Positions 11,967-27,867 of a stretch of DNA of 64,000 bases are shown here, piece after piece. Under the pieces are notes generated by a model, which was given only the letters and a program-made list of their open reading frames with translations, was not told the DNA's origin and did not search any database. The position numbers and the translations under genes are program-made. Position 1 is the first letter of the stretch, and each line of letters starts with the position of its first letter. Source of the stretch: Clostridia bacterium. Lineage in GTDB: Bacteria > Bacillota > Clostridia > UMGS1840. The stretch is taken from the NCBI GenBank assembly GCA_045661305.1, contig JAZRFJ010000036.1:2379-66378 (forward strand). The letters are read 5' to 3'.

Positions 11967-12030
11967 TTATATTTTTTTATTTTCAAAAAACACATGTATA
12001 TCAAGGGATTTTAGAAATATTACATTTTTG

Positions 12031-12285: not shown

Positions 12286-12331
12286 AAAATCAACCTCCGC
12301 ACATATAGCTTTATACTAATATATGCGGAGG
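12286..12331 (-). terminator. Terminator after the hydrogenase gene
   Basis: Hairpin CCTCCGCA(C)ATAT/ATATGCGGAGG followed by a T-run on the minus strand. Confidence 0.6.
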
Positions 12332-12338
12332 TATTAAA

Positions 12339-13793
12339 TTAAATGTTTTTTATGTTTTGGAAATCTTTTATTGATTGGGTTATAGTTTTTTTCTCTGCTT
12401 CCACTGCATATTTATCTACACTTTTTTTATTTATATCTGCATGAGTAAGACAACCGGCACCGCCTATGCAACCACCTTCACAAGCCATTCCTTCAATAAA
12501 GTTAACATCCAATATTCCCTTTTTGGCTTTTAAAAGTGCAAGCTTACACTCCTCTATTCCATTACAGGTAACAGGCTTAAACTCAAACTCATCACAGCCA
12601 TTTTCCTTAAGTCCCTCTCTTATAGCCTCTGTAAGCCCACCACTTCTTGCAAAAATTCTTCCAAAATATGAAGCATTATCAAGACTTATTTCAGAAAGCT
12701 CAGAAATTTCAATATCACGGCTGTCAAAAAGTGCCTGAAGCTCCACAAATGTTATTGCGTAATCAATATAAGGTTTTACTTCCTCACGCTGAAATTCAGC
12801 TTTTTTTGCTGTACAAGGTCCGATAAACACAACTTTTGCATTTTCATCGAGTTCTTTTATTTTCTTTCCTATCATAGCCATAGGTGAAGGATTTTTGGAT
12901 ATATGCTCTTTTAATTGCGGTTGATTTTTTTCAATATATGAAACAAAAGCAGGACAACATGAGCTTGTAACAAAACTTTTCGTTTCACTTACCTCTTTTG
13001 CCTCATCAATCGAAACCATATCAGCACCTAAAGCAACCTCAACAATGTCATAAAATCCAAGTTCCTTTATTCCTGCTAAAATCTGTCCCGATTTTGCATA
13101 TGAGAACTGACCTGCAATAGATGGAGCAACGGCTGCATAAACCTTATACTTTGTATTATTTTCACTTTCCTTTATTATATCAATAACATCTAAAATATAA
13201 GACCTGTCAACAACAGCACCGAAAGGACACTGATATACGCATGCACCGCATGAAGTACATTTATCATAATCTATTTCTGCCTCTCCTGTTTTGGACATAC
13301 TTATCGCACCGATTTTACAAGCATTTTCACACGGTCTTTTTTTATTCACAATAGCACTGTAAGGACATACTTTTGCACAAGCACCGCAGTTTTTACATTT
13401 TTGTTTATCTATAACTGCCCTTTGGTTTTCGTCATAAGAAATTGCACCAAATTTACAAACATCCTCACACCTGTGTGCCATGCATCCTCTGCATGTGTCT
13501 GTAACGCTGTAACCACTGTGCGGACATTCATCACAGGCTATTGAAATAACCTGAATAACATTCTTATTCTTTTCATCATTCGCACCGATTGCAATTTTTA
13601 TTCTTTCCTGAATAATAGCTCTGTCCTTATATATACAACAACGCATCGGTGATTCATTTTTAGCTATAATATCTGATGGGATAGAATTAATTTTATGAAG
13701 AAGCTTATCATTCCATAAAGCTCTTGCGAGTTCTCTTAAAACTCTGTACTCAATATACTGAACTTTAGTATCAAACTTTCTTATCTTTGGCAT
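12339..13793 (-). CDS. Monomeric [FeFe] hydrogenase-like protein (H-cluster domain plus N-terminal ferredoxin-like 4Fe-4S domains)
   Basis: H-cluster motifs are present: TSSCCPAFV (L1), GPCTAKKAE (L2) and MACEGGCIGGAG (L3), plus several CxxCxxCxxxCP clusters. Start placed at MPKIRKF with an AGGAGAG RBS. Confidence 0.8.
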   Translation of the reverse strand: MPKIRKFDTKVQYIEYRVLRELARALWNDKLLHKINSIPSDIIAKNESPMRCCIYKDRAIIQERIKIAIGANDEKNKNVIQVISIACDECPHSGYSVTDTCRGCMAHRCEDVCKFGAISYDENQRAVIDKQKCKNCGACAKVCPYSAIVNKKRPCENACKIGAISMSKTGEAEIDYDKCTSCGACVYQCPFGAVVDRSYILDVIDIIKESENNTKYKVYAAVAPSIAGQFSYAKSGQILAGIKELGFYDIVEVALGADMVSIDEAKEVSETKSFVTSSCCPAFVSYIEKNQPQLKEHISKNPSPMAMIGKKIKELDENAKVVFIGPCTAKKAEFQREEVKPYIDYAITFVELQALFDSRDIEISELSEISLDNASYFGRIFARSGGLTEAIREGLKENGCDEFEFKPVTCNGIEECKLALLKAKKGILDVNFIEGMACEGGCIGGAGCLTHADINKKSVDKYAVEAEKKTITQSIKDFQNIKNI

Positions 13794-13892
13794 TTTTACT
13801 CTCCTTTTTGCTTTTTTAAAAAAACTACACAATATTCGACTCACAAATTTTTTAATAAAACCTGTGAGCCGTGTATCGTATAATTTTATGAC

Positions 13893-15158
13893 TTATTTAA
13901 AGAATATAATAAGGAACTGTGAAGCAAGAACTACTGCGATAAGTGCAATAGGATATGTAGCCGCATAAGCTGCAGCAACTTCCTCTGTTTTTGCTACATT
14001 TATAAGAGTTCCGAGTGCAGGTGTACTTGTCATACCGCCTGTAAGTGAACCGAGATTGTTAAGCAAGCAAAGCTTAAGAACATATTTTGCAAACAAGAAT
14101 CCTATAATCATTGGGAATATTGTCATAATTACGCCGTAAACAAAATACATAGGGTCAAAGAATTTTACAAAATCTGCACCGCCAGGGATACCAGCTCCAA
14201 CTAGGAAAAGCACTAATCCGAGTTCTCTGAACAGTTTTAAAAGTGATTGTTCAGGCATAATATTCATTTTTCCTACATTTCTGAAGTGTCCCATAACAAG
14301 TGAAACAAGTAAGCATCCGCCTGTTTCTGTAAGTGAGAAGCATGTTCCTGTAAGTCCTGCAGAAGAAAGAGGAATTTTAATTTTTCCTACGATAATTCCC
14401 AAAACAACAGCTATTGCAAACGCTGCAATTCCGTGGTCATCAAGATTGAATACCTTTTTCTCTGTTTTATTTTCAACAGCTTCATCTTTTGAAGAAGTGA
14501 GTTTTTCTCTTTCTTCAGCCATATTAGCTTTTGAAAGCTTAGGAACAAGCTGTACAAAAAGAACAACACCAATAACACCGAAAATATATGCAATACCATG
14601 TCCAACTGAAACAAGGCTTTCATACTGTGGGTTAACAGTTGCTTTTGCTGCTGAAAATGCAGGGGTTGATGTAAGTGAGCCTGATAAAAGTCCAACAATC
14701 ATAGCTGTGAAGCCTTCTGAATTTCCTGCTGTACCATAGCCGATTACTTTTCCCATCATTATACATGCGATTGCAGAAACTGCACCTGCAAGTATAATAA
14801 TGAAACCTAAAAGTACATAAGATTTAAAATTCTTTTTCATATTTCCGAAAAACTTAGGACCTGCAATAAATCCAACAGATGTTACAAAAAGAAGAAGTCC
14901 GAGTTTTTCTACAATGCTAAGAGCATTGTCTAAATATGAAAGTGTTACATTATCGCCTTTTAATAAAAGCTGTGCCTCTAAAGGATTAAAAAGTGTAGCA
15001 CCGAATATAAGTGCAATAATAAATACGCCCGCATCTCCTAAAGATACACCTTTTATTGTAATTCTGCCTAAAGCATAACCAAAAAATAAAATACCAAAAA
15101 TACAAAGCATCAAAAATGAAATTCCCGTAACAGGAATAACTCCGCCAAATAGTGTCAT
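13893..15158 (-). CDS. AAE-family (AspT/YidE/YbjL/SucE-type) permease, duplicated membrane domain without TrkA-C domains
   Basis: 421 aa with two homologous hydrophobic halves (LGRITIKGVSLGDAGVF... and VGKIKIPLSS...TETGGCLL) joined by a short charged linker. Confidence 0.65.
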   Translation of the reverse strand: MTLFGGVIPVTGISFLMLCIFGILFFGYALGRITIKGVSLGDAGVFIIALIFGATLFNPLEAQLLLKGDNVTLSYLDNALSIVEKLGLLLFVTSVGFIAGPKFFGNMKKNFKSYVLLGFIIILAGAVSAIACIMMGKVIGYGTAGNSEGFTAMIVGLLSGSLTSTPAFSAAKATVNPQYESLVSVGHGIAYIFGVIGVVLFVQLVPKLSKANMAEEREKLTSSKDEAVENKTEKKVFNLDDHGIAAFAIAVVLGIIVGKIKIPLSSAGLTGTCFSLTETGGCLLVSLVMGHFRNVGKMNIMPEQSLLKLFRELGLVLFLVGAGIPGGADFVKFFDPMYFVYGVIMTIFPMIIGFLFAKYVLKLCLLNNLGSLTGGMTSTPALGTLINVAKTEEVAAAYAATYPIALIAVVLASQFLIIFFK

Positions 15159-15204
15159 AATAATCGCCTTTCCAAAAATTGTTTTTATATTATTTTTTAC
15201 ATTG

Positions 15205-15241
15205 TTTCAGGCAGATATTAATAAATAAAATCTGCCTGAAA
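15205..15241 (-). terminator. 12-bp perfect stem-loop after the frdA-like gene (terminator-like; weak T-tract on the minus strand)
   Basis: TTTCAGGCAGAT/ATCTGCCTGAAA with a 13-nt loop, 6 nt after the stop codon. Confidence 0.4.
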
Positions 15242-15246
15242 TTAAA

Positions 15247-16851
15247 TTATTTATCTTTTCTTCTGTAATCCGGTAAAAGCTTAGGTGAAACAACATCTGT
15301 TTTTATGCCTGCTTCTTTAGCTTCCTGAGCATATTTCTTAACATGGTCTAAAGTTAATTTGCCAACCTTAACAGATTTGAACTTATCTCCGGCACTCTTT
15401 CCTGCGTTTCTTCCGAATACGATAATATCCAAAAGTGAGTTACCCATAAGTCTGTTTCTTCCGTGAATACCTCCAACAGCTTCGCCTGCAACATAGAGGT
15501 TTTCAATATCACTCATACCGTCATCAGTAATTTTGATACCACCGTTCTGGTAATGAAGTGTAGGATAAATGAGGATAGGCTCTTTACGGATATCAATTCC
15601 GTATTTACCAAACATTCTCATCATAGCAGGAATTCTCTTTTCGATTGTTCCCTCTCCGCCTTTTAATTCAATCATAGGAGTATCAAGCCAGATTCCGTAA
15701 CCGTTAGGTGTAGGAACACCGTTACCTCTGTCTGAACATTCTCTGATAACTGAAGAAGCACAAACATCTCTTGTCTCTAACGGATGCATAAATACTTCTC
15801 CGTTTACATTTACAAGCTTAGCACCGAGTGAACGAACTTTTTCAGTAACGAGTGCACCGAAAATCTGTTCAGGGAATGCTGCACCTGTTGGGTGATACTG
15901 TAATGTATCCTGATATAAGAGTCTTGCACCTGCTCTGTAAGCAAGAACAAGTCCGTCTGCAGTTGCACCATAGTGGTTAGATGTTGGGAAGCCCTGATAG
16001 TGCATTCTTCCTGCACCGCCTGTTGCAATAATAACTGTTTTTGCTTTTGCAACAAGGTATTCACCTGTTTCCATGTTAAGAAGAACTGCACCTGCAGCTG
16101 CACCCTTATCGTCTAAAATAAGTTCAACTGCTGCTGTGAAATCTACAACAGGAATTTCACGGTTCAAAACTTCGTCACGAAGTGTTCTCATGATTTCAGC
16201 ACCGCTATAATCCTTTGCAGCGTGCATTCTTTTTCTTGATGTACCACCACCGTGTGTTGTGACCATTGTACCATCAGGCATTTTATCAAATTCAACACCA
16301 AGCTCATTAAGCCATTTTATAGCTTCAGGGGCATCGTTTACGAGTTTATAAAGAAGGTCTTTCTGTGCTGCAAAATGACCGCCACCGAATGCGTCAATAA
16401 AGTGAATATAAGGTGAATCGTTTGGCTTATCAGCAGCCTGAATACCGCCTTCTGCCATCATTGTATTGGCATCACCTATTCTTAATTTTGTAACAATCAT
16501 TACATTTGCACCCTTGTTATGTGCTTCGATAGCGGCAGATGAACCTGCACCGCCTCCGCCTATAACAAGAACATCTACATCATAGTCAGGATTTTTAAGG
16601 TCAATTTTTTCTTTTGCAATTCTTGAATTACCCTGTAAGAGTGCAACAAGCTCTTTAGGTGCTTTCTGTCCTTTATTTGGCCCGATTTTGATTTCATCAA
16701 ATTCTTCTTCTCTGTAGTCAGGGTGATATGTTTTTAAAAGTTCAGATTTTTCATCTGCTGTCATTCTTTTTGGTTCTAAAGCCGCGTTTGCAGCTCTTGC
16801 AGCCTCAACCTTTTTGATTGATTCCTGCATTTCAACTGAATATGCTGACAT
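15247..16851 (-). CDS. Soluble fumarate reductase/succinate dehydrogenase-type flavoprotein (FrdA/SdhA/TfrA-like) with a ~90-aa N-terminal extension
   Basis: FAD fold VLVIGGGGAGSSAAIEA, active-site-type LQYHPTG and HGRNRLMGNSLLD. No membrane-anchor gene is nearby. Confidence 0.75.
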   Translation of the reverse strand: MSAYSVEMQESIKKVEAARAANAALEPKRMTADEKSELLKTYHPDYREEEFDEIKIGPNKGQKAPKELVALLQGNSRIAKEKIDLKNPDYDVDVLVIGGGGAGSSAAIEAHNKGANVMIVTKLRIGDANTMMAEGGIQAADKPNDSPYIHFIDAFGGGHFAAQKDLLYKLVNDAPEAIKWLNELGVEFDKMPDGTMVTTHGGGTSRKRMHAAKDYSGAEIMRTLRDEVLNREIPVVDFTAAVELILDDKGAAAGAVLLNMETGEYLVAKAKTVIIATGGAGRMHYQGFPTSNHYGATADGLVLAYRAGARLLYQDTLQYHPTGAAFPEQIFGALVTEKVRSLGAKLVNVNGEVFMHPLETRDVCASSVIRECSDRGNGVPTPNGYGIWLDTPMIELKGGEGTIEKRIPAMMRMFGKYGIDIRKEPILIYPTLHYQNGGIKITDDGMSDIENLYVAGEAVGGIHGRNRLMGNSLLDIIVFGRNAGKSAGDKFKSVKVGKLTLDHVKKYAQEAKEAGIKTDVVSPKLLPDYRRKDK

Positions 16852-16863
16852 TTTTATTCCCTC

Positions 16864-17538
16864 CTATGCTTCAATTTCTCTGTTATTATAGAGTTCTTTC
16901 ATTTCTTCGATAGGCTTCTGCATGAGTTCCTCTAAAAGTTCTTTGAAAGTACCGTCATTAATTTCCTTTACTCTGTCCTCAAGATGCTGTGTCTTTGGAG
17001 CAAGGTATTTTCCGTTTAATCTTCTTGCCAACAAAGAAACCTGTGGATGAGAAATACCAGCCGGACATCTTGATGAACAACAGCCGCACATTACGCAGTC
17101 AAATGATTCTTCAGCACATTTTTCATATTCGCCTCTCTGTGCATAAGCAATATACTGCATAACATTAAGTCCCTGAGTACAGCTGTTTGTACAAGCATTA
17201 CAGCCGATACAAGCATATATTTCAGGATAAAGCTGCATCATAATCTGCTCTGTCGGAGCGATTTTTTCAATATCATAAATTTCTTTAACAAGCGGGAAGA
17301 AAGGTAAGGTTGCAACATACATATCGTTCTCAACCTTTGTTGAGCATGCAAGACAAACCTTGAGCTCTTTATCGCCTTTAATTCTGTAAATTGTTGCACA
17401 GGCACCGCAGAAACCGTTACGGCAACCGCAACCTCTGACTAACTGATAGCCTGCATATTCCATAGCGCCCATAATTGTAAGGCTTTCAGGAACTTCGTAT
17501 TTTTTTCCGAATAAATATACATTAACCATGTTTTCCAT
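16864..17538 (-). CDS. FrdB/SdhB-like iron-sulfur subunit (2Fe-2S plus 4Fe-4S/3Fe-4S)
   Basis: N-terminal CGCRNGFCGACA...CLAC and C-terminal CIGCNACTNSC ... CVMCGCCSSRCP. Lies 12 nt upstream of the flavoprotein gene. Confidence 0.75.
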   Translation of the reverse strand: MENMVNVYLFGKKYEVPESLTIMGAMEYAGYQLVRGCGCRNGFCGACATIYRIKGDKELKVCLACSTKVENDMYVATLPFFPLVKEIYDIEKIAPTEQIMMQLYPEIYACIGCNACTNSCTQGLNVMQYIAYAQRGEYEKCAEESFDCVMCGCCSSRCPAGISHPQVSLLARRLNGKYLAPKTQHLEDRVKEINDGTFKELLEELMQKPIEEMKELYNNREIEA

Positions 17539-17585
17539 GTTACGCTACTCCTTTTTTAAATTTTCAATTTAAGATAAACTGCTTT

Positions 17586-18422
17586 TTAATATTCGTTTGG
17601 TAATTCATCAAGCTGATCACAACGGAAAACAGGACCGTCTTTACAAACATATTTTGAACCTATGTTACATCTTCCGCATTTTCCAACGCCGCATTTCATT
17701 CTTAATTCCATAGTTGTGAATACCTGAGTTTTATTAAATCCAAGCTCCTGCAAGCCTGCAAGAGTAAACTTAATCATGATAGGTGGTCCGCAGATAATAA
17801 CTGTTTTATCTGTTGAGAAGTTAAGCTCCTTAACATAGTTAGGAACAAAACCTACATGACCGTCCCAGCCTTCCTGTTCACGGTCTATTGTAAGGTGAAC
17901 ATTTATTCCGTCCTCCTTGCACCACTCATTTATAATTTCATTGTAGTCTACAAGGTCATCCTTACTTCTTGAGCCGTAAACTATATCAACCTTTCCGTAA
18001 TTTCCTCTGTTTGCTCTTACATAGTTGATTACACTTCTTAAAGGAGCAAGTCCGATACCGCCGGCAACAAAGAGTAAATCTTTGCCCTTAAAGTCAGCTT
18101 CAACAGGAAAACCGTTTCCATATGGTCCTCTTATTGTAACCTGCTGTCCTACCTCCATCTGATGAAGCCATTCAGTAAGACAACCGCATTTTTTAATTGA
18201 AAATTCCATAAAAGCGGTATTTGTAGGTGAAGATGTTATAGAAAACATCGCCTCTCCTACTCCAGGAATTGAGAGCATAGCACACTGTCCCGGAATATGT
18301 TTGAAAACAACGCCACCGTCCAAAGCTTCAACTCTGAATGTTTTTACATCAGGAGTATCAATTCTTATGTCTGTTACAACACCAAGATGCGGTATAAGCG
18401 CTTCATTTGTAAGTTGTGCCAT
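17586..18422 (-). CDS. FAD/NAD(P)H-binding oxidoreductase with C-terminal 2Fe-2S (FlxA / AsrB / HydG-gamma-like)
   Basis: Ferredoxin-reductase-type fold (FVAGGIGLAPL) and a C-terminal CGVGKCGRC...C motif. Confidence 0.7.
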   Translation of the reverse strand: MAQLTNEALIPHLGVVTDIRIDTPDVKTFRVEALDGGVVFKHIPGQCAMLSIPGVGEAMFSITSSPTNTAFMEFSIKKCGCLTEWLHQMEVGQQVTIRGPYGNGFPVEADFKGKDLLFVAGGIGLAPLRSVINYVRANRGNYGKVDIVYGSRSKDDLVDYNEIINEWCKEDGINVHLTIDREQEGWDGHVGFVPNYVKELNFSTDKTVIICGPPIMIKFTLAGLQELGFNKTQVFTTMELRMKCGVGKCGRCNIGSKYVCKDGPVFRCDQLDELPNEY

Positions 18423-19444
18423 TATTTATTCACCCCCAAAGTTTTTGCTACTTTAACAATATTCATGGAAATCGGGCATTTGCTTAAGCATCTTCCACAA
18501 CCTACGCAACCGTATTCACCGTTGTTGTTTGCAGGGAAATACACAAGCTTGTGCATAAATCTTTGTCTGAATCTTTCTAACTGACTTGTTCTCGGATTTC
18601 CGTGTGCCATTTTTGTAAAATCACTGTACATACATGAATCCCAGCATCTGAATCTCTGTACACCGTTTCCTGTGTCAAAATCTTTTATGTCATAACACTG
18701 GCATGTAGGACAAACAAAAGTACAGGTTCCGCATCCTAAACAAGCTTTATAAAGCTCTTTCCATTTTTCTGAATTGAAAAGCTCATTAAGATGTTCACCG
18801 TCAAAGCCCTCAAGATTAAGGTCAGATAAAGGAAGCTTTCCGATAATTGCTTTAATATCTTCTTTCAAAGCTTCTACAACCTTTTCATCGCCTTTTTCAA
18901 AAACATCTTTAACCTTATCTGTAAGCTCTTCACCTTTTTTGGTGTTAGCCTTCCAGTAAAGATAACCATCTTTTACCCATGTTGAAATATCACCTAAGCC
19001 ATCAGATGCATCAATGCCGAAAGCACTGCAGAAGCAGGTTTCTTCAGGCTCATTACAAGCCATTGAAATAATAACACCTTTTTCTCTTTTAGCTTTATAG
19101 TATGAGTCAACAGGGTCAGATAAAAATACCTTGTCTAAAATATCAAAGCTTCTTACATCACAAGCTTTAACACCGAAAATAACAAATTCTTTTACATCAA
19201 CATCAGGACTTTCTATTGAGATGTTCTTACCCTCAACCTTAAAAGAAACAAGGTCTTCAGTCTGTGGGAAGAATAAATCCTTTGCAGATTTATTTGTGTT
19301 AAGGCAATCAATTCTTACTTCACTTCCGTCTTCCCATTTGTAAAATTCAACTTTTCCTCCCTTTTCGATAGGAGCATAAATATTATCAAAAGAATTTATT
19401 TTTTCAAATAATTTGTTTAAACTGTTTACAGAAAGTTTTAACAT
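18422..19444 (-). CDS. 4Fe-4S dicluster protein (FlxB / AsrA / HydB-beta-like)
   Basis: CLGCGTCTFVCPTCQC and CVGCGRCLSKCP motifs. Start and stop overlap the neighbouring genes. Confidence 0.6.
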   Translation of the reverse strand: MLKLSVNSLNKLFEKINSFDNIYAPIEKGGKVEFYKWEDGSEVRIDCLNTNKSAKDLFFPQTEDLVSFKVEGKNISIESPDVDVKEFVIFGVKACDVRSFDILDKVFLSDPVDSYYKAKREKGVIISMACNEPEETCFCSAFGIDASDGLGDISTWVKDGYLYWKANTKKGEELTDKVKDVFEKGDEKVVEALKEDIKAIIGKLPLSDLNLEGFDGEHLNELFNSEKWKELYKACLGCGTCTFVCPTCQCYDIKDFDTGNGVQRFRCWDSCMYSDFTKMAHGNPRTSQLERFRQRFMHKLVYFPANNNGEYGCVGCGRCLSKCPISMNIVKVAKTLGVNK

Positions 19445-20424
19445 TATGCATTTCCCCTTTCCATAACAATACTTGGCTCAGCATCTTCTTTTGTATAAGA
19501 TGTGAGTGGTCCTTTTGCCTCAGCATCTTCTCCTGCCTGATATTCACCGTAAAGCTCATTTGCATCTTTGATGAATTTTCTGTTAAGAAGATGAAGCGGT
19601 ATATTCTGCGGACATACTCTTGAACATTCTCCGCAGTCTGTACAACGACCTGCAACATGGAATGCTCTTATAATGTGGAACATGTTTTCTTCAAATGTAT
19701 CAGCATTAGCCTTAGAATTTACGCCAACCTGTTCGTTGTCAAAAATACATTTTGTGCATGAACAAGCAGGACAAACATTTCTGCATGCGTTACAACGGAT
19801 ACATTTTGAAAGCTGTTCTCTCCAGAATTCATATCTTTCGTCTGCAGTCATATTTTCAAGCTTTTCAACTTCTGAAAATTTATCGTTTTCAGTGTTCAAT
19901 TCGCCTTCATCACCAACCAATTCGTCATAAACAAAATGCTTTTTACCCTTACAGGAGATACATTTTTCAAGTAACACTTCACTTTTTTTGCATTTTTTCT
20001 CACCATAAATTGTTTCAACGGTTACATCATCACCGTCAACTTTAACATCTGTGATACCTTTAATGCCGAGTGCTCTTATTTTTTCAATATCAATCATGCC
20101 ATCGCAAGGAATGCCTACAACATGGATATTTTCTCTTATAATTCTGTGTTCCTTTAAAAGCTCATTAAAGCTATAAGTGTCGCAAGGCTTTAAAAGAACA
20201 GCAACTTTTCCCTCATTTTTGGAGTCTAAGATAAGATATTTGCTCAAATTTGCTGCACAAAAATCGTCATAGCAAAAATCTGCTGCATTTTCCTTTGTGA
20301 AAACATATGGAGTTTTATCATAAAAGAATTCGCCGTTTTTCCAGCCGATAACTCTTGCTACCGCTTCACTTTCGAGCAAAGAATTTACTTTTTCAATAAT
20401 TAATTCTTTTTGCATCATTTGCAC
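19444..20424 (-). CDS. 4Fe-4S cluster protein (FlxC-like, FrhB-like N-terminus)
   Basis: CIRCNACRNVCPACSC and CTDCGECSRVCP motifs. Translationally coupled to both neighbouring genes. Confidence 0.55.
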   Translation of the reverse strand: MQMMQKELIIEKVNSLLESEAVARVIGWKNGEFFYDKTPYVFTKENAADFCYDDFCAANLSKYLILDSKNEGKVAVLLKPCDTYSFNELLKEHRIIRENIHVVGIPCDGMIDIEKIRALGIKGITDVKVDGDDVTVETIYGEKKCKKSEVLLEKCISCKGKKHFVYDELVGDEGELNTENDKFSEVEKLENMTADERYEFWREQLSKCIRCNACRNVCPACSCTKCIFDNEQVGVNSKANADTFEENMFHIIRAFHVAGRCTDCGECSRVCPQNIPLHLLNRKFIKDANELYGEYQAGEDAEAKGPLTSYTKEDAEPSIVMERGNA

Positions 20425-20852
20425 CTCAAATCCTCCAATCTCTTGTTTTCTCCGAGCTCACAGATTGTTTCTGCAAATTCGTTCATAGTGTTTGAAAATT
20501 TAACACCCTCAGCAGCACTAATCCATTCAACTCTTGTTCTTTCTCTTTCAATACCAAGATAATCAAGCATACTAAAGAGTAATGTCATTCTTCTTCTTGC
20601 AAAATAGTTTCCTGAAGTATAGTGGCAATCCCCAGGATGACAGCCGGCAATGATAACACCGTCAGCACCTCTCTGGAACGCTCTTAAAATAAAAAGCGGA
20701 TTAACACGGCATGAGCATGGTACTCTTATTACCTTTACATTTGCAGGATATGCAAGTCTGCTTGTTCCTGCCAAGTCAGCACCGGCATAACTACACCAGT
20801 TACAGCAGAAAGCAACTATTAATGGTTTATGTTCTTTATTATTTATCGACAT
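20415..20852 (-). CDS. mvhD: MvhD/FlxD-type hydrogenase iron-sulfur subunit D
   Basis: 145 aa with FCCNWCSYAGADLAG...RVPCSCRV...GCHPGDCHY, typical of MvhD (FlpD family). Confidence 0.85.
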   Translation of the reverse strand: MSINNKEHKPLIVAFCCNWCSYAGADLAGTSRLAYPANVKVIRVPCSCRVNPLFILRAFQRGADGVIIAGCHPGDCHYTSGNYFARRRMTLLFSMLDYLGIERERTRVEWISAAEGVKFSNTMNEFAETICELGENKRLEDLRCK

Positions 20853-22828
20853 ATTGCATCTACCTCCGCTATAATCTGTTTTGTTGAGAAGCCTTTAAGG
20901 TCCATAGCACTTGATGGACAAGTAACTGTACAAGCACCGCAACCCTGACATACAGCTTCATTTACAACTGCAACTCTTCTTGTTTCAACACCGCCAGGAA
21001 TTCTATATTCTTTATAAGCATATTCAATAGCACCGTAAGGACAAACCTTAGCACAATTTGAACATCCGTTACAAAGCATTTCGTCACTGTGTGCAACACA
21101 TGGGTTACATGAAAGCTTATCTTTCGCAAGAAGTCCGATAACCTTAGCTGCAGCGGCACTTGCCTGTGCAACTGTTTCAGGAATATCTTTCGGTCCCTGG
21201 CATACACCTGACAAGAACACACCTGCTGTTGGGCTTTCAACCGGTTTTAATTTCGGATGTGCTTCTGTCAAGAAGTTATTTGTATCAATACTTGCTGTAA
21301 GGAGTGTCGCAATATCTTTTGCTGATGGGTCCGGCTCAATAGCAGCAGCCAAAACAACGAGGTCAGCTTCAATATTAATCTGTTCATTTGAAATAAGGTC
21401 TGAACCCTGTACTAAAAGCTTATCGCCTTTTTGAGCAACCTTACCAACCATACCTTTGATATAGTCTACGCCATACTGTTCAACAGCTCTTCTGTAAAAC
21501 TCGTCAAAGTTTTTACCTGGTGTACGAACATCAATATAAAATACATGAACTTCGGTATCAGGATATTTTTCTCTGATAAGCATAGCATGTTTAGCTGTGT
21601 ACATACAGCAGATTTTTGAACAATAAGGCTTACCGCAGCCTGAAGTATCACGGGAGCCTACACACTGAACAAATACGATAGTGTGCGGATGCTTTCCGTC
21701 ACTTGGACGAAGAAGTGTTCCCTTTGTAGGGCCTGCAGCATTCATAAGTCTTTCAAGCTCTAAAGATGTTACAACATCAGGACACATTGAATATGAAAAT
21801 TCATCAAAATTCTCAAGTGAGATAGGATTATATCCTGTTGCAACAACGATAGCACCGTACTGTCTTTCTAAAATTTCATCTTTCTGTTCAAAATCAATAG
21901 CACCTACTCCGCAGTTCATCTGACAAAGTCCGCATTTTCCTGTTTTAAATTTGATACAAGCCTTTGTATCAATTACAGGAACATTAGGAATAGCCTGAGC
22001 AAACGGAATATAAATAGCGCCTCTTGTATTAAGACCTAAGTTAAATTCGTTTTTATTTTTCTTTGAAGGACATTTTTCAGTACAGATACCACAGCCTGTA
22101 CAAATATCCTCTTTAACATATCTTGCTTTTCTTCTTATATTTACATTGAAGTTACCAACGAAGCCTTTAACAGCGTCAACTTCACTCCAAGTATAAATAT
22201 TGATATTTTCGTGCTGAGCAGCTTCAACCATTTTAGGTGTTAAGATACAAGCAGCACAGTCGAGTGTCGGGAAGGTTTTATCAAGCTGAGCCATCTTTCC
22301 GCCGATTGTCGGAGATTTTTCAACAATATCAACCTCAAAGCCTGCATCAGCTATATCAAGAGCTGACTGAATACCTGCAATACCGCCGCCAATAACTAAA
22401 GCTCTTTTTATAACAGGACTTTCGCCTTCCTGAAGCGGAGCATTAAGCTTTACTTTCGCAATCGCTGTTCTTGCGAGTATAACTGCTTTTTCAGTTCCCT
22501 CTTCCACATCTTTATGAATCCATGAGCATTGTTCACGGATGTTTGCGATTTCAACCATATAAGGATTAAGTCCTGCAGCTTTAGCAGCTTTTCTGAAAGT
22601 AGCTTCATGCATTCTTGGAGAACAGGAGCATATTACAACTCCTGTAAGACCGTATTCCTCAATAGCTGTTCTTACTTTTACCTGACCGGCTTCTGAACAC
22701 ATATACTGATAATCCTCAGCATATACTACACCGGGTTCTTTTTTTATTGCTTCAACAACAGCCTTAACATCAACAGTAGCGGCAATGTTGGTTCCGCAAT
22801 GACATACAAATACACCAATTTTATGCAA
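20843..22828 (-). CDS. hdrA: Heterodisulfide reductase subunit A-like flavoprotein
   Basis: 661 aa with N-terminal GVFVCHCGTNI, FAD fold VIGGGIAGIQSA and multiple 4Fe-4S motifs. Confidence 0.9.
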   Translation of the reverse strand: MHKIGVFVCHCGTNIAATVDVKAVVEAIKKEPGVVYAEDYQYMCSEAGQVKVRTAIEEYGLTGVVICSCSPRMHEATFRKAAKAAGLNPYMVEIANIREQCSWIHKDVEEGTEKAVILARTAIAKVKLNAPLQEGESPVIKRALVIGGGIAGIQSALDIADAGFEVDIVEKSPTIGGKMAQLDKTFPTLDCAACILTPKMVEAAQHENINIYTWSEVDAVKGFVGNFNVNIRRKARYVKEDICTGCGICTEKCPSKKNKNEFNLGLNTRGAIYIPFAQAIPNVPVIDTKACIKFKTGKCGLCQMNCGVGAIDFEQKDEILERQYGAIVVATGYNPISLENFDEFSYSMCPDVVTSLELERLMNAAGPTKGTLLRPSDGKHPHTIVFVQCVGSRDTSGCGKPYCSKICCMYTAKHAMLIREKYPDTEVHVFYIDVRTPGKNFDEFYRRAVEQYGVDYIKGMVGKVAQKGDKLLVQGSDLISNEQINIEADLVVLAAAIEPDPSAKDIATLLTASIDTNNFLTEAHPKLKPVESPTAGVFLSGVCQGPKDIPETVAQASAAAAKVIGLLAKDKLSCNPCVAHSDEMLCNGCSNCAKVCPYGAIEYAYKEYRIPGGVETRRVAVVNEAVCQGCGACTVTCPSSAMDLKGFSTKQIIAEVDAICR

Positions 22829-22842
22829 TTATCTCACTTCCT

Positions 22843-23235
22843 TTACTTAACAAATTTTCTAAATGCACTCACGATAGCCTGCTGAGGTAATTTCTCGTTA
22901 AGCTTTTCGGGTACATCTTCTACTTTCATATGATTAAGTCCCTGCTGTCTTACAACTGCAAGCCTTACAGCCTCAACCAATTTTCCTGGCTGAACATCAC
23001 GAGGGCATCTTTCAACACAAGCCATGCATGAAAGACAATTCCAGATTGCATTTGACTTCATAAGCTTTTCAATCTGTCCCTTTTCCACCATAGAAACGAA
23101 CTGATGCGGATGATATTCCATTTCATCGTATGCAGGGCAAGCACCTGAGCATTTGCCGCATTTCATACATTTTTTAGGTTCAACTCCGCTTATTCTCTTT
23201 AAGTTTTCTTTTGTTTCAATTTTAAATTCCTGCAT
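22843..23235 (-). CDS. hdrC: HdrC-like 4Fe-4S dicluster subunit
   Basis: 130 aa with CMKCGKCSGACP and CLSCMACVERCP. Confidence 0.75.
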   Translation of the reverse strand: MQEFKIETKENLKRISGVEPKKCMKCGKCSGACPAYDEMEYHPHQFVSMVEKGQIEKLMKSNAIWNCLSCMACVERCPRDVQPGKLVEAVRLAVVRQQGLNHMKVEDVPEKLNEKLPQQAIVSAFRKFVK

Positions 23236-23248
23236 TTTTTCTCCTCCC

Positions 23249-24040
23249 TTACTTTACACCAAGGGCTTCTGCAAGAAGCTGGGTGAAATAATAAATAGGA
23301 AGCTTATTATCTGTTGCATTAGCATCAAGATTATACATACAAAGCGGGCAAGCTGTAATTATTGCTTCAGCACCCATTTGGGTTGCTGACTCTAATATAA
23401 CATCAACCTTTTTCTTTGCAAGCTCCTCATTTTCCATAGCAATATATCCGCCGCAACATTCATTACGGTATGGGAATATTACAGGTGTTGCTCCTATTGC
23501 CTTTATAAAATCCTCAATAATTGTAGGATTTTCAGGATTATCAAACTGCATAACCTTTCCCGGTCTTAATAAAAGACAACCGTAATAAGCTGCAATTTTT
23601 CTTCCTGTAAGCGGATTTACAACTTTCTTCTTAAGTTCATCAAATCCAACCTTATCTCTTAGCATTTCAAGATAATGGATAATATTTGTTTCGCCGGTGT
23701 AAGGAACTTCGGGTTTAAGATAATTATTTGCTCTTAAACACATATCCTCATTTGTTGCGATTTCGTTATTTACTCTTTTTAATACATTATGACAGGCTGA
23801 ACAAAGTGTTAGAAGGTCCTGACCTTTTTCTCTTGCACTGATAAGAGCACGAACTGAAGAAAGCTTTGAAGCAATTTCGTCTGATGCTGTTGAATAAACA
23901 CCGCCGCAACACTGCCAGTCAGGAATTTCTTCCATTGTAATTCCTAAGACTTCAGCTGATTTTCTTGCATAATCGTCAAGCTCTTTAGCCTTGGTTTTTA
24001 ATGTACAACCCGGATAATAACTGAAAACCATTTTTTTCAT
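23249..24040 (-). CDS. hdrB: HdrB-like subunit with two CCG domains
   Basis: YYPGC..., WQCCGG and NECCGGY motifs. The true start may be the ATG at 24031 (MVFSYYPGC), which has better RBS spacing. Confidence 0.85.
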   Translation of the reverse strand: MKKMVFSYYPGCTLKTKAKELDDYARKSAEVLGITMEEIPDWQCCGGVYSTASDEIASKLSSVRALISAREKGQDLLTLCSACHNVLKRVNNEIATNEDMCLRANNYLKPEVPYTGETNIIHYLEMLRDKVGFDELKKKVVNPLTGRKIAAYYGCLLLRPGKVMQFDNPENPTIIEDFIKAIGATPVIFPYRNECCGGYIAMENEELAKKKVDVILESATQMGAEAIITACPLCMYNLDANATDNKLPIYYFTQLLAEALGVK

Positions 24041-24104
24041 TCCTTTCTTTGTTGTTTATAATGACGACTGCAAAATGCAGTCCAGATTATTTACATTTAT
24101 ATAA

Positions 24105-25469
<1,365 letters not shown>

Positions 25470-25520
25470 AATTTTTTCCTTTCATATCTTTCATTATATA
25501 TAAGTAAATTTTAAACAACA

Positions 25521-27750: not shown

Positions 27751-27776
27751 TGGTTAAATTCCTTTCAAATCAAAGC

Positions 27777-27838: not shown

Positions 27839-27867
27839 ATTATACAACTTTATGTATCAAAAGTCAA
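27839..27867 (-). promoter_or_regulatory. Sigma-70-type promoter of the nfnA-led operon (TTGACT-17-TATAAT)
   Basis: On the minus strand, -35 TTGACT (27867-27862), a 17-nt spacer and -10 TATAAT (27844-27839). Confidence 0.6.

What the first reader, a model, noticed from the sequence alone, without database searches (positions are those of the whole stretch)
15247..24040. Nine-gene hdrBCA-mvhD-flxCBA-like-frdBA-like operon: candidate soluble, flavin-based electron-bifurcating NADH:fumarate reductase
The nine minus-strand genes are packed with 0-13-nt gaps or overlaps; the only larger gap is 47 nt. In order they encode HdrB (two CCG domains), HdrC, HdrA, MvhD/FlxD and two polyferredoxin-like proteins. 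These are followed by an NAD(P)H/FAD/2Fe-2S protein (FlxA/AsrB-like), an FrdB/SdhB-like Fe-S protein and an FrdA/SdhA-like flavoprotein with HPT and HGxNRLxxNSL active-site motifs. No membrane-anchor subunit is encoded. Established parallels exist: FlxABCD-HdrABC of Desulfovibrio (an NADH-linked Hdr), MetFV-HdrABC-MvhD of Moorella, thiol:fumarate reductase TfrAB of methanogens, and type-E SQRs that use an HdrB-like CCG subunit. Together these suggest that the FrdAB-like pair is the high-potential terminal module of an HdrA-centred bifurcating complex. The proposed reaction is 2 NADH + fumarate + oxidised ferredoxin giving succinate + reduced ferredoxin. Fumarase, NfnAB, PEPCK, an [FeFe] hydrogenase and an AAE transporter flank the operon. 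I am not aware of a biochemically characterised enzyme with this composition.
Basis: partly seen in the sequence, partly recalled or inferred. Interest (0 to 1): 0.7.

Follow-up and report, generated by a model that had tools for sequence, protein, structure and literature searches.

The report
Hdr-Flx-linked soluble fumarate reductase operon
This gut Clostridium carries a conserved operon that most likely makes succinate from fumarate using NADH while also charging ferredoxin, an energy-saving trick that others had already proposed from genomes but nobody has yet proven in the test tube.

Summary
Nine tightly packed minus-strand genes (15247-24040) encode HdrB, HdrC, HdrA, MvhD, FlxC, FlxB, FlxA, an FrdB-like Fe-S protein and an FrdA-like flavoprotein. 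None has a membrane-spanning segment. The conserved unit is larger: fumarate hydratase lies upstream and an AAE-family transporter downstream. The same gene order recurs in every related Clostridia locus long enough to show it, including cultured Blautia luti, B. schinkii and Anoxynatronum. The flavoprotein keeps all fumarate-binding and catalytic residues, lacks the histidine for covalent FAD and the C-terminal domain, and falls in a well-supported clade next to thiol:fumarate reductase TfrA, apart from NadB. Across many phyla the constant core is hdrC-hdrB-frdB-frdA, which ties the Frd pair specifically to HdrBC. It is not new. The same 'succinate operon' and hypothesis were published for Pseudoclostridium thermosuccinogenes (2019 preprint; BMC Microbiol 2020), and a similar idea for tubeworm symbionts (mSphere 2019). 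I found no biochemical proof in the searchable literature. This is a new member of a known, still uncharacterised kind, of moderate interest because it is so widespread in gut bacteria.

The parts
15247..16851 (-). FrdA-like flavoprotein, 534 aa. Residues 93-473 are the FAD_binding_2 domain. It has a 90-aa N-terminal extension and no Succ_DH_flav_C domain. Asn129 stands where the covalent-FAD His would be. Active-site residues are H320, T336, E337, R340, H433 and R467.
   Evidence: alignment to SdhA and FrdA structures; residue conservation; tree; predicted fold closest to E. coli FrdA.
16864..17538 (-). FrdB-like iron-sulfur subunit, 224 aa. It has an SdhB-type [2Fe-2S] motif (C39, C44, C47, C65) and two CxxCxxCxxxC motifs at C110-C120 and C148-C158, predicting 2x[4Fe-4S] and no 3Fe-4S motif.
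   Evidence: The 12 Cys are invariant in 221 homologues. A natural FrdB-FrdA fusion, P0122, exists.
17586..18422 (-). FlxA-like NAD(P)H-binding flavoprotein with a 2Fe-2S cluster (AsrB / sulfhydrogenase gamma type). Predicted electron entry point.
   Evidence: FAD_binding_6, NAD_binding_1, DHODB_Fe-S_bind; PRK08345 231 bits, AsrB 203 bits.
18422..19444 (-). FlxB-like Fe-S protein (AsrA / sulfhydrogenase beta type).
   Evidence: Fer4_22; ShyB 205 bits; P. furiosus sulfhydrogenase I beta, 9NEZ_B, E 9e-46.
19444..20424 (-). FlxC-like Fe-S protein with two CxxCxxCxxxC motifs and additional cysteines.
   Evidence: Co-linear in all related loci.
20415..20852 (-). MvhD/FlxD [2Fe-2S] electron-transfer subunit.
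   Evidence: PF02662, E 1.7e-55; matches the MvhD part of HdrA2, positions 642-774.
20843..22828 (-). HdrA, 661 aa, TTG start. FAD plus multiple [4Fe-4S] clusters. Predicted bifurcating flavoprotein.
   Evidence: HdrA2 797 bits over 3-659; 5ODC_A E 1.4e-203, full length; three CxxCxxCxxxC motifs, 34 Cys.
22843..23235 (-). HdrC, 130 aa, 2x[4Fe-4S].
23249..24040 (-). HdrB, 263 aa, with two complete CCG motifs (C12, C44, C45, C80, C83 and C155, C195, C196, C231, C234).
   Evidence: 8RVV_B E 2e-33; 10 Cys invariant in 102 homologues; these are the only CCG motifs in the 64-kb window.
24105..25469 (-). Class II fumarate hydratase (FumC), 64 nt upstream of hdrB. Part of the conserved unit in Oscillospiraceae-type loci.
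   Evidence: TIGR00979 744 bits, above the 665 cutoff; present in 52 of 61 loci of set A.
13893..15158 (-). AAE-family (AspT/YidE/YbjL) transporter with 9 hydrophobic segments, 88 nt downstream of frdA. Candidate succinate or C4-dicarboxylate carrier.
   Evidence: TIGR01625 131 bits, above the 72 cutoff; (frequently follows frdA).
25521..27750 (-). nfnA (26899-27750) and nfnB (25521-26915), the NADH-dependent ferredoxin:NADP oxidoreductase. Directly upstream of fumC and possibly the first genes of the transcription unit.
   Evidence: Also upstream of fumC in the closest relative L190. Not seen in the other Clostridia loci.
27839..27867 (-). Best sigma-70-like promoter match in the region (TTGACT-17-TATAAT, 11 of 12), about 90 nt upstream of nfnA and just after a terminator-like hairpin at 28002-28023.
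   Evidence: This is a consensus match only, and the number of promoter-like sites in the region is not above chance.
12339..13844 (-). Monomeric group B1 [FeFe] hydrogenase, 48 nt downstream of the transporter. A possible sink for the reduced ferredoxin.
   Evidence: TIGR04105 562 bits, above the 450 cutoff. Adjacent in only a few related loci.

Best explanation
The nine proteins form one soluble complex that reduces fumarate to succinate with NAD(P)H and at the same time reduces ferredoxin. The predicted overall reaction is 2 NADH + fumarate + oxidised ferredoxin -> 2 NAD+ + succinate + reduced ferredoxin.

Predicted electron path:
1. NADH is oxidised at FlxA (FAD and 2Fe-2S).
2. Electrons pass through the FlxB and FlxC clusters and the MvhD 2Fe-2S cluster to the FAD of HdrA.
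3. The HdrA flavin bifurcates. The low-potential electron leaves through the HdrA ferredoxin domains to ferredoxin.
4. The high-potential electron goes through HdrC and HdrB into the FrdB clusters (2x4Fe-4S, then 2Fe-2S).
5. It reaches the non-covalent FAD of FrdA, which reduces fumarate.

FumC supplies fumarate from malate (PEPCK and malate dehydrogenase route), and the AAE transporter probably exports succinate or exchanges C4-dicarboxylates. The reduced ferredoxin can be spent on H2 through the adjacent group B hydrogenase, on NADPH through NfnAB, or on ion pumping by Rnf elsewhere in the genome.

Shown here: subunit identities, cofactor-binding motifs, active-site conservation, absence of membrane anchors, and conserved synteny.

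Inferred: that the proteins form one complex, the order of electron transfer, NADH rather than NADPH as donor, ferredoxin as the second acceptor, and direct HdrB-to-FrdB wiring without a free thiol.
For: Domains and motifs of all nine subunits are as expected, and none has a membrane-spanning segment.

Fumarate is the likely substrate:
- FrdA active-site residues H320, T336, E337, R340, H433 and R467 are invariant in 227 homologues of 43-89% identity.
- The covalent-FAD His is Asn in 226 of 227. From established knowledge (E. coli FrdA H44 variants, Blaut et al. 1989), non-covalent FAD retains fumarate reduction but not succinate oxidation.
- The tree places FrdA in a 100%-supported Hdr-linked clade, sister to TfrA-like and SdhA-like proteins and separate from NadB.
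- The best structural matches are E. coli FrdA and M. smegmatis Sdh1.

Synteny links the modules:
- All 55 set-A loci and 65 set-D loci with enough sequence have all eight partner genes in the same order.
- The hdrC-hdrB-frdB-frdA core recurs in Bathyarchaeota, Asgard archaea, Thermoplasmata, Chloroflexota, Acidobacteriota and Planctomycetota.
- A natural FrdB-FrdA fusion exists.
- Methanogen TfrB spans FrdB-like, HdrC-like and HdrB-like regions in one chain. Window FrdB, HdrC and HdrB map to TfrB model positions 19-150, 120-233 and 261-487.
- The window holds a single CCG protein, so a disulfide-reducing site plus a separate thiol-oxidising site is not encoded here.

Physiology in relatives:
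- In P. thermosuccinogenes, an operon the authors describe with the same composition rises about 4-fold at low CO2, and H2 abolishes succinate formation (PMC7282089).
- B. luti, which carries this cluster (L274), makes 0.42 succinate per glucose, has 0.5-1 U/mg fumarate reductase activity, and transcribes frdAB highly (PMC12773636).

Thermodynamics (inference from E0' of +33 mV for fumarate and -320 mV for NADH): the net reaction is about -33 to -49 kJ/mol with ferredoxin at -500 to -420 mV.
Against: - No enzyme of this composition has been purified or assayed.
- Bifurcation is inferred only from the presence of HdrA. Some HdrA-containing systems are not established as bifurcating.
- The invariant CCG cysteines of HdrB are the signature of a disulfide-reducing site, so a thiol cofactor cannot be excluded.
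The match rests on the published gene-by-gene description.
- I did not verify that the frdAB amplified in the B. luti paper is the gene pair in L274.
- The AlphaFold model is only of moderate confidence (pLDDT 71.7, low in active-site loops).
- Promoter and terminator scans are not above chance.
Confidence: 0.6

Rival explanations
1. The complex is a non-bifurcating NAD(P)H:fumarate reductase. It forms as proposed, but HdrA acts only as an electron conduit, all electrons from NADH end on fumarate, and no ferredoxin is reduced.
For: - Fumarate reduction by NADH is strongly exergonic on its own (E0' values).
- A sister clade in Gammaproteobacteria pairs the same FrdBA type with a NuoF-like NADH module and no Hdr, so the Frd pair can work with a simple NADH input.
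- The 2026 B. luti energy model assumes a plain NADH-dependent fumarate reductase.
Against: - A full-length HdrA with all ferredoxin domains (E 1e-203 to the bifurcating enzyme) plus MvhD is an expensive addition if no second acceptor is served.
- Seven extra genes are strictly conserved across hundreds of species.
- In P. thermosuccinogenes, H2 abolishes succinate formation, as expected if ferredoxin reduction is coupled.
Confidence: 0.15
2. There is a thiol-mediated two-step system. Flx-HdrABC reduces a low-molecular-weight or protein disulfide with bifurcation, as proposed for D. vulgaris. A thiol:fumarate reductase activity of the TfrAB type then re-oxidises the thiols with fumarate.
For: - All ten CCG cysteines of HdrB are invariant.
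- The nearest named family of the flavoprotein is TfrA.
- The P. thermosuccinogenes paper describes Flx-Hdr as passing electrons to 'ferredoxin (and thiols)'.
- The hdrCB-frdBA unit stands alone in Acidobacteriota and Planctomycetota, like a split TfrAB.
Against: - Only one CCG protein is encoded in the window, and FrdB has no CCG domain. The same HdrB would have to both make and consume the thiol, which serves no purpose.
- CoM and CoB are not known in Clostridia (established knowledge).
- No thiol-carrier gene such as DsrC is conserved in the cluster.
Confidence: 0.12
3. The system runs in the reverse, confurcating direction. It oxidises succinate to fumarate, using reduced ferredoxin to pull electrons up to NAD+.
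For: - Hdr-type complexes are reversible in principle.
- Syntrophic propionate oxidisers face this thermodynamic problem (context from PMC5947623, listed but not read in detail).
Against: - The covalent-FAD His is replaced by Asn in 226 of 227 homologues. In E. coli FrdA this abolishes succinate oxidation (established knowledge).
- Carriers include succinate-producing fermenters such as B. luti and, per the published operon description, P. thermosuccinogenes.
- The neighbours are PEPCK, fumarase and a hydrogenase.
Confidence: 0.04
4. The flavoprotein acts on a substrate other than fumarate, for example L-aspartate (NadB-like) or another unsaturated carboxylate, as urocanate and other FAD_binding_2 reductases do.
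For: - The protein is below the curated cutoff of every named NCBIfam family and lacks the C-terminal domain.
- The adjacent transporter belongs to the aspartate:alanine exchanger family.
Against: - All dicarboxylate-binding and catalytic residues are invariant.
- It is paired with an SdhB-type Fe-S subunit, which NadB and urocanate reductase lack.
- It is separated from NadB with 99% support.
- The neighbour is a true FumC, not an aspartase (744 bits against a 665 cutoff for FumC, versus 463 bits against a 681 cutoff for AspA).
- B. luti extracts have high fumarate reductase activity.
Confidence: 0.05

Closest known systems
'Succinate operon' of Pseudoclostridium thermosuccinogenes (Koendjbiharie & van Kranenburg, Preprints 2019, doi 10.20944/preprints201912.0288.v1; Koendjbiharie et al., BMC Microbiol 2020, PMC7282089)
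   Same: The published composition matches the window's fumC to aae gene for gene: fumarate hydratase, seven Flx-Hdr genes, two fumarate reductase genes, and a putative succinate transporter. The hypothesis is the same (NADH to fumarate plus ferredoxin). The organism also uses a GTP-PEPCK route to succinate.
   Different: It is a different organism (a thermophile, versus a gut Oscillospiraceae relative here). nfnAB and a group B hydrogenase are attached in the window. Sequence-level orthology was not tested because I could not retrieve that genome.
FlxABCD-HdrABC NADH dehydrogenase/heterodisulfide reductase of Desulfovibrio vulgaris (Ramos et al. 2015, cited)
   Same: It has the same seven subunit types (FlxA, B, C, D=MvhD, HdrA, B, C). 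It is soluble, and NADH-driven bifurcation to ferredoxin is proposed.
   Different: The gene order is reversed here (hdrBCA-mvhD-flxCBA). In D. vulgaris the proposed high-potential acceptor is a disulfide (DsrC) and the system is tied to ethanol metabolism. Here an FrdAB module and fumarase are attached.
Thiol:fumarate reductase TfrAB of Methanothermobacter (Heim et al. 1998, cited)
   Same: TfrA is the nearest named family of the flavoprotein (best NCBIfam hit; 42% identity to a bona fide TfrA, P0199). TfrB unites FrdB-like, HdrC-like and HdrB-like parts, mirroring the hdrC-hdrB-frdB neighbourhood. It is soluble and has no quinone.
   Different: The score is far below the TfrA cutoff (338 versus 718 bits). 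The window protein lacks the C-terminal domain, has an N-terminal extension, and its Fe-S and CCG parts are split into three proteins. HdrA, MvhD and Flx are added. The CoM and CoB thiols are not expected in Clostridia.
MvhADG-HdrABC and Fdh-HdrABC bifurcating heterodisulfide reductases of methanogens (PDB 5ODC, 7BKB, 8RVU)
   Same: HdrA, HdrB, HdrC and MvhD are full-length homologues with all cluster ligands.
   Different: The electron donor module is Flx (NADH) instead of a hydrogenase or formate dehydrogenase. The proposed terminal acceptor is fumarate through FrdAB instead of CoM-S-S-CoB.
tfrAB / flxABCD-hdrABC genes in the rTCA clusters of tubeworm symbionts and Thioflavicoccus mobilis (Rubin-Blum et al. 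2019, PMC6315080; restated in PMC13147460)
   Same: The same idea has been published there: an AB-type fumarate reductase combined with Flx-Hdr would use NADH to reduce fumarate and ferredoxin together.
   Different: The setting is autotrophic (rTCA cycle) and includes 2-oxoglutarate:ferredoxin oxidoreductase. The FrdBA homologues I retrieved from these symbionts sit next to a NuoF-like gene and korAB, not next to Hdr. Their relation to the published tfrAB was not resolved.
Type E succinate:quinone reductase / methylmenaquinol:fumarate reductase SdhABE
   Same: The window's HdrB scores best against the SdhE model (NF042965, E 2.8e-46). This is a precedent for a CCG protein working with an SdhAB pair.
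   Different: SdhE is membrane-associated and quinol-linked. Those enzymes have no HdrA, MvhD or Flx. The score is far below the cutoff (158 versus 500 bits).

Membership tests
Flx-Hdr-linked soluble fumarate reductase ('succinate operon' type, as described for P. thermosuccinogenes) | FrdA-like flavoprotein with an intact fumarate active site, paired with an FrdB-like Fe-S subunit. | tested here: met
Flx-Hdr-linked soluble fumarate reductase ('succinate operon' type, as described for P. thermosuccinogenes) | A complete HdrA, HdrB, HdrC, MvhD, FlxA, FlxB and FlxC set in the same gene cluster. | tested here: met
   Synteny.
Flx-Hdr-linked soluble fumarate reductase ('succinate operon' type, as described for P. 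thermosuccinogenes) | Fumarate hydratase upstream and a transporter-like gene downstream. | tested here: met
   (fumC and aae flank the cluster in most loci).
Flx-Hdr-linked soluble fumarate reductase ('succinate operon' type, as described for P. thermosuccinogenes) | Sequence orthology to CDQ83_RS03315-03365. | not tested
   The P. thermosuccinogenes genome was not among the loci returned. The match rests on the published description.
Flx-Hdr-linked soluble fumarate reductase ('succinate operon' type, as described for P. thermosuccinogenes) | NADH- and fumarate-dependent ferredoxin reduction by one complex. | not testable with these tools
   This needs anaerobic purification and assay. No such report was found.
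Classical membrane-bound quinol:fumarate reductase / succinate:quinone reductase (types A-D) | Membrane anchor subunit(s). | tested here: not met
   No hydrophobic segment in any of the nine proteins. No anchor gene in the cluster.
Classical membrane-bound quinol:fumarate reductase / succinate:quinone reductase (types A-D) | Histidine for covalent 8-alpha-FAD, and the C-terminal Succ_DH_flav_C domain. | tested here: not met
   Asn129 aligns with the His of SdhA and is Asn in 226 of 227 homologues. There is no Succ_DH_flav_C hit. All SdhA and FrdA NCBIfam scores are below their cutoffs.
Classical membrane-bound quinol:fumarate reductase / succinate:quinone reductase (types A-D) | An SdhB with 2Fe-2S, 4Fe-4S and 3Fe-4S motifs. 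| tested here: not met
   The second motif is a full CxxCxxCxxxCP, with four Cys. TIGR00384 scores 27.5 bits against an 88 cutoff.
Thiol:fumarate reductase TfrAB | TfrA equivalog score. | tested here: not met
   NF004900 scores 338 bits against a 718 cutoff, although it is the best-scoring family. The tree places the window in a sister clade, not inside the TfrA-like group.
Thiol:fumarate reductase TfrAB | TfrB with the Fe-S part and two CCG domains in one polypeptide. | tested here: not met
   FrdB (224 aa) has no CCG domain. The CCG domains are on the separate HdrB.
Thiol:fumarate reductase TfrAB | CoM-SH plus CoB-SH as electron donors. | not testable with these tools
   This is a biochemical property.
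L-aspartate oxidase NadB | NadB equivalog score, and a stand-alone flavoprotein without an Fe-S partner. | tested here: not met
   TIGR00551 scores 265 bits against a 453 cutoff. The protein is separated from three bona fide NadB sequences with 99% bootstrap. It is always paired with FrdB.
HdrABC-MvhD electron-bifurcating module | Full-length HdrA with FAD and ferredoxin domains; HdrC with 2x[4Fe-4S]; HdrB with two CCG motifs; MvhD. | tested here: met
   The NCBIfam equivalog cutoffs for the methanogen enzymes are not reached (for example 797 versus 1100 bits), so this is a homologous module and not the methanogen enzyme itself.
HdrABC-MvhD electron-bifurcating module | Demonstrated flavin-based bifurcation. 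| not testable with these tools
   This is a biochemical property.

The most novel reading that the evidence does not exclude
The hdrC-hdrB-frdB-frdA unit is an ancient, portable 'split Tfr' module found from Asgard and Bathyarchaeota to Acidobacteriota and Clostridia. In it the non-cubane clusters of HdrB act as a wire into FrdB rather than as a disulfide reductase. Different electron-input modules have been grafted onto it: none, HdrA-MvhD, Flx, or (for the FrdBA pair alone) a NuoF-like protein. In gut Lachnospiraceae and Oscillospiraceae, the Flx-HdrA version would be the main, quinone-free, energy-conserving route to succinate. Current energy budgets for these bacteria, for example the one for Blautia luti, would then need revision.
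Probability: 0.4. Interest if true: 0.6.

Novelty: new member of a known kind. Interest (0 to 1): 0.42.

Why it matters
If the prediction holds, fumarate reduction in quinone-free Clostridia would conserve energy by charging ferredoxin, as butyryl-CoA dehydrogenase/Etf does for crotonyl-CoA. That would explain how these bacteria make succinate without a respiratory chain.

The gene cluster is extremely common. The protein search returned its maximum of 8000 scored clusters at 90% identity, all with E <= 1e-20; this threshold also admits more distant relatives. Carriers include abundant human-gut genera such as Blautia, Ruminococcus and Oscillospiraceae.

Succinate and H2 are key cross-feeding and host-signalling metabolites in the gut. 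A ferredoxin-coupled fumarate reductase sitting next to a group B [FeFe] hydrogenase links the two. The most recent physiological model of B. luti still assumes a plain NADH-dependent fumarate reductase, so the published hypothesis has not reached gut-microbiome energetics. Cultured carriers identified here (B. luti, B. schinkii, Anoxynatronum spp.) make the question directly testable.

Tried and rejected
- **Plasmid origin.** megablast of the operon against PLSDB gave no match.
- **Exact-protein look-up** of the window FrdA to identify the organism found nothing on record. The closest genome locus is an uncultured Oscillospiraceae MAG, L190, at 89-95% protein identity.
- **Retrieving the P. 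thermosuccinogenes locus** for a direct sequence comparison. Four genome scans did not return it, and the 2019 preprint is not in the held library.
- **Literature searches for a biochemically characterised enzyme.** 'electron-bifurcating fumarate reductase' gave 0 papers. The other combinations found only hypotheses.
- **Rfam scan** of 11800-28600 for riboswitches or leaders gave no hit.
- **Promoter and terminator scans.** Counts were no higher than in shuffled sequence, so they cannot define the transcript.
- **NadB-like or non-fumarate function.** Considered and rejected on active-site, partner-subunit and tree evidence.
- **Hdr linkage in the gammaproteobacterial FrdBA clade.** I expected it but found none within 10 kb. 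A NuoF-like gene is present instead.
- **AlphaFold model.** Only moderately confident, so I did not interpret the N-terminal extension structurally.

Full report
**1. What is in the sequence**

The minus strand between 15247 and 24040 carries nine ORFs. The gaps between them are 13, 14, -10, -10, -1, -1, 47 and 12 nt. Pfam and NCBIfam identify them, in order of transcription:

| Gene | Coordinates | Main evidence |
|---|---|---|
| HdrB | 23249-24040 | Two CCG stretches |
| HdrC | 22843-23235 | Two CxxCxxCxxxC motifs |
| HdrA | 20843-22828 | 797 bits to the HdrA2 model over residues 3-659 |
| MvhD/FlxD | 20415-20852 | PF02662, E 1.7e-55 |
| FlxC-like Fe-S protein | 19444-20424 | Two CxxCxxCxxxC motifs |
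| FlxB-like | 18422-19444 | AsrA / sulfhydrogenase beta type |
| FlxA-like | 17586-18422 | FAD_binding_6, NAD_binding_1, 2Fe-2S |
| FrdB-like | 16864-17538 | 2Fe-2S plus two 4Fe-4S motifs |
| FrdA-like flavoprotein | 15247-16851 | FAD_binding_2, E 4e-69 |

Comparison with solved structures agrees:
- HdrA aligns end to end with the bifurcating HdrA of the Mvh-Hdr complex (5ODC_A, E 1.4e-203).
- HdrB aligns with methanogen HdrB (8RVV_B, E 2e-33).
- FlxB aligns with the beta subunit of Pyrococcus sulfhydrogenase I.
- The N-terminal half of FrdB carries the SdhB 2Fe-2S motif.

None of the nine proteins has a hydrophobic stretch that could span a membrane.

**2.

- *Flavoprotein.* It lacks the C-terminal Succ_DH_flav_C domain. 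It has a 90-residue N-terminal extension that is conserved in homologues; matches start at residues 1-10. It has Asn129 where SdhA and FrdA have the histidine that binds FAD covalently (alignment to 7D6V_A and 1NEK_A).
- *FrdB.* It has two complete four-cysteine motifs, so 2x[4Fe-4S] is predicted rather than 4Fe-4S plus 3Fe-4S.
- *Extent of the unit.* A class II fumarate hydratase sits 64 nt upstream (TIGR00979 744 bits, above the cutoff). An AAE-family transporter with nine hydrophobic segments sits 88 nt downstream.
- *Wider flanks.* Further upstream are nfnAB. Further downstream is a group B1 [FeFe] hydrogenase. GTP-PEPCK lies at 34056-35813.
- *Transcription signals.* The best promoter-like site lies upstream of nfnA (27839-27867), just after a terminator-like hairpin. 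These scans are not above chance and do not define the transcript.

**3. Conservation elsewhere**

The 80 best (77-83% identity) are gut and rumen Clostridia, mostly Oscillospiraceae-type MAGs. In every locus that extends far enough, the order is fumC-hdrB-hdrC-hdrA-mvhD-flxC-flxB-flxA-frdB-frdA, usually followed by aae. Fifty-five of 61 loci with sufficient flank have all eight partners; from the listing, the others appear to be cut by contig ends.

*Set D (a 70%-identical query).* This scan brought in Lachnospiraceae, including cultured species: Blautia luti, B. schinkii, B. fusiformis, B. acetigignens, B. glucerasea and Mediterraneibacter agrestimuris. Sixty-five of 71 loci have the complete nine-gene cluster.

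*Closest relative of the window.* This is an uncultured Oscillospiraceae MAG (L190, 85-95% protein identity). It also has nfnB directly upstream of fumC.

*Protein database.* The search returned its maximum of 8000 scored clusters, all with E <= 1e-20, a threshold that also admits more distant relatives; the listed top hits are named 'FAD-dependent oxidoreductase' or 'succinate dehydrogenase/fumarate reductase flavoprotein subunit' by the sources.

**4. Deeper relatives show which parts belong together**

A 56%-identical representative (P0121) led to loci from Bathyarchaeota, Asgard archaea, Thermoplasmata, Chloroflexota, Acidobacteriota, Planctomycetota, Gemmatimonadota, Omnitrophota, Eisenbacteria and other Clostridia. 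The constant element is hdrC-hdrB-frdB-frdA:

| Lineage | Genes around the core |
|---|---|
| Acidobacteriota, Planctomycetota | Only the four core genes |
| Bathyarchaeota, Asgard, Eisenbacteria, Omnitrophota | Core plus hdrA-mvhD |
| Clostridia, including cultured Anoxynatronum (fumC-frdBA-hdrBCA-mvhD-flxCBA) | Core plus hdrA-mvhD plus flxCBA |

Thirty-six of 53 usable loci have frdB plus hdrB plus hdrC.

Two further observations tie the parts together. A natural FrdB-FrdA fusion exists (P0122). The methanogen TfrB model is matched in successive segments by the window's FrdB (model positions 19-150), HdrC (120-233) and HdrB (261-487). The three proteins therefore correspond to one polypeptide in thiol:fumarate reductase. 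This ties the Frd pair specifically to HdrBC.

A 48%-identical sister clade occurs in sulfur-oxidising Gammaproteobacteria, tubeworm symbionts, Nitrosomonas mobilis and Nitrotoga. It keeps frdB-frdA but has no Hdr or Flx within 10 kb. A NuoF-like NADH module and a 2-oxoacid:ferredoxin oxidoreductase follow instead.

**5. Is the flavoprotein a fumarate enzyme?**

- In 227 homologues of 43-89% identity, the residues equivalent to E. coli FrdA H232, T244, E245, R287, H355 and R390 are invariant. In the window these are H320, T336, E337, R340, H433 and R467.
- The covalent-FAD position is Asn in 226 of 227 homologues.
- The twelve cluster-binding cysteines of FrdB and the ten CCG cysteines of HdrB are likewise invariant.
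- The best NCBIfam family is TfrA (338 bits), followed by SdhA/FrdA and NadB. All are below their cutoffs, partly because the C-terminal domain is missing.
- In a neighbour-joining tree (395 columns, 100 bootstraps), the window falls in a 100%-supported clade of Hdr-linked proteins from bacteria and archaea. That clade sits inside a 100%-supported group of proteins lacking the C-terminal domain. The group is sister to TfrA, TfrA-like and mycobacterial Sdh1-type sequences and is separated from bona fide NadB with 99% support.
- The AlphaFold model is of moderate quality (pLDDT 71.7, pTM 0.78). Its best structural matches are E. coli FrdA, M. smegmatis Sdh1, NadB and SdhA.

The tree has limits: it is a distance tree with a limited reference set and includes no AprA, Fcc3 or urocanate reductase.

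**6. Most likely mechanism**

NAD(P)H is oxidised at FlxA. Electrons pass through FlxB, FlxC and MvhD to the HdrA flavin, which bifurcates. One electron goes through the HdrA ferredoxin domains to ferredoxin. The other goes through HdrC and HdrB into FrdB and the non-covalent FAD of FrdA, which reduces fumarate.

With E0' of +33 mV for fumarate/succinate and -320 mV for NADH (values quoted in PMC5861303), and ferredoxin at -420 to -500 mV, the net reaction 2 NADH + fumarate + Fd(ox) -> 2 NAD+ + succinate + Fd(red) is about -49 to -33 kJ/mol. This figure is my calculation.

Non-covalent FAD fits a one-way fumarate reductase. E. coli FrdA variants without the covalent link keep fumarate reduction but lose succinate oxidation (established knowledge, Blaut et al. 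1989).

Only one CCG protein is encoded in the 64-kb window, and FrdB has none. A scheme with one site making a thiol and another consuming it is therefore not encoded. This favours direct wiring, but it does not exclude a bound thiol cofactor.

What is shown: subunit identities, cofactor motifs, active-site conservation and synteny. What is inferred: complex formation, the order of electron transfer, the identity of the pyridine nucleotide, and bifurcation itself.

**7. Comparison with the literature**

- *P. thermosuccinogenes.* The hypothesis is already published. Koendjbiharie et al. (BMC Microbiol 2020, PMC7282089) describe a 'succinate operon' with fumarate hydratase, a seven-gene Flx-Hdr complex, a two-gene fumarate reductase and a putative succinate transporter. 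They report about 4-fold co-induction at 1% CO2. They also note that H2 abolishes succinate formation, which they read as evidence for a fumarate reductase coupled to ferredoxin reduction. [quoted passage not shown] The gene-by-gene composition equals the window's fumC-to-aae unit. I could not retrieve that genome to confirm orthology by sequence.
- *Tubeworm symbionts.* Rubin-Blum et al. (mSphere 2019, PMC6315080) proposed that tfrAB and flxABCD-hdrABC in the rTCA clusters of tubeworm symbionts form one electron-shuttling complex. A 2026 survey restates this as NADH reducing fumarate and ferredoxin simultaneously, and cites co-expression data (PMC13147460).
- *Biochemistry.* No paper in the searchable library reports purification or an assay of such a complex. 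By sequence, the PDB holds no Flx-type complex beyond sulfhydrogenase.
- *B. luti.* A January 2026 study shows succinate as a major product (0.42 per glucose), 0.5-1 U/mg methyl-viologen:fumarate reductase activity and high frdAB transcription. Its energy model assumes a plain NADH-dependent fumarate reductase and does not mention Hdr (PMC12773636). B. luti carries the full nine-gene cluster (L274, L275). I did not verify that the frdAB they amplified is this pair.

**8. Verdict**

It remains a prediction, and it is not new.

I rate this a new member of a known, still uncharacterised kind. Interest is moderate (0.42). A specialist would not be surprised by the idea. However, the very wide occurrence in abundant gut genera, the conserved hdrCB-frdBA core across archaea and bacteria, and the availability of cultured carriers make a decisive biochemical test both feasible and worthwhile.

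Noticed in passing
L107 9339-16736 (Escarpia spicata endosymbiont); the same pattern in L081-L160: A 46-48%-identical sister clade of the FrdBA pair occurs in sulfur-oxidising Gammaproteobacteria, tubeworm and clam symbionts, Thiomargarita, Nitrosomonas mobilis and Nitrotoga. It is followed by a NuoF-like protein (Complex1_51K plus NADH_4Fe-4S) and a two-subunit 2-oxoacid:ferredoxin oxidoreductase, with no Hdr or Flx within 10 kb. This looks like a different, simpler NADH-input module on the same Frd core, in an rTCA-like setting.
   Followed up: partly
L212-L222, L215, L216, L218 (Acidobacteriota, Planctomycetota, Gemmatimonadota): A four-gene unit, hdrC-hdrB-frdB-frdA, stands alone without hdrA, mvhD or flx genes nearby. 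This is a 'split TfrAB' whose electron donor is unknown.
   Followed up: partly
L174, L180, L194 (Anaerolineae/Chloroflexota); L204 (Dehalococcoidia): The frdBA pair is embedded among several HdrA-like, MvhD-like and NfnB-like genes on both sides. This suggests larger or alternative bifurcating assemblies in Chloroflexota.
   Followed up: no
P0122 (727 aa, from the representative library): A natural fusion of FrdB (residues 1-216, 39% identical to the window FrdB) directly onto the N-terminal extension of FrdA.
   Followed up: partly
P0163, P0167, P0172, P0186, P0192, P0196: A family of proteins of about 405 residues that contain only FAD_binding_2, with no N-terminal extension and no C-terminal domain. 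They form a 95%-supported clade next to the Hdr-linked flavoproteins. Their function and partners are unknown.
   Followed up: no
window 12339-13844: A monomeric group B1 [FeFe] hydrogenase lies 48 nt downstream of the AAE transporter. A 2025 paper listed (PMC12578642) reports group B [FeFe] hydrogenases as the main drivers of gut H2 production. Its position beside a predicted ferredoxin-reducing fumarate reductase may be functionally meaningful, but the adjacency is seen in only a few related loci.
   Followed up: partly
window 15170-15246, 24060-24085 and 13837-13871 (minus strand): Stable hairpins without a following U-run sit in the frdA-aae, fumC-hdrB and aae-hydrogenase spacers. An example is TTCAGGCAGAT...ATCTGCCTGAA after frdA. 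They may be mRNA processing or stability elements, or partial terminators within the operon.
   Followed up: no
window 50963-59131: A large serine recombinase (Resolvase + Recombinase + Zn_ribbon_recom, 50963-52576) and a 1094-aa N6_Mtase/Eco57I-type restriction-modification protein (55847-59131, plus strand) lie in a stretch where GC skew changes sign. This is possibly an integrated mobile element.
   Followed up: no
L274, L275 (Blautia luti); L267 (B. schinkii): Cultured human-gut Blautia species carry the complete hdrBCA-mvhD-flxCBA-frdBA cluster, without an adjacent fumC. The 2026 B. luti physiology paper models fumarate reduction as simply NADH-dependent.
   Followed up: partly
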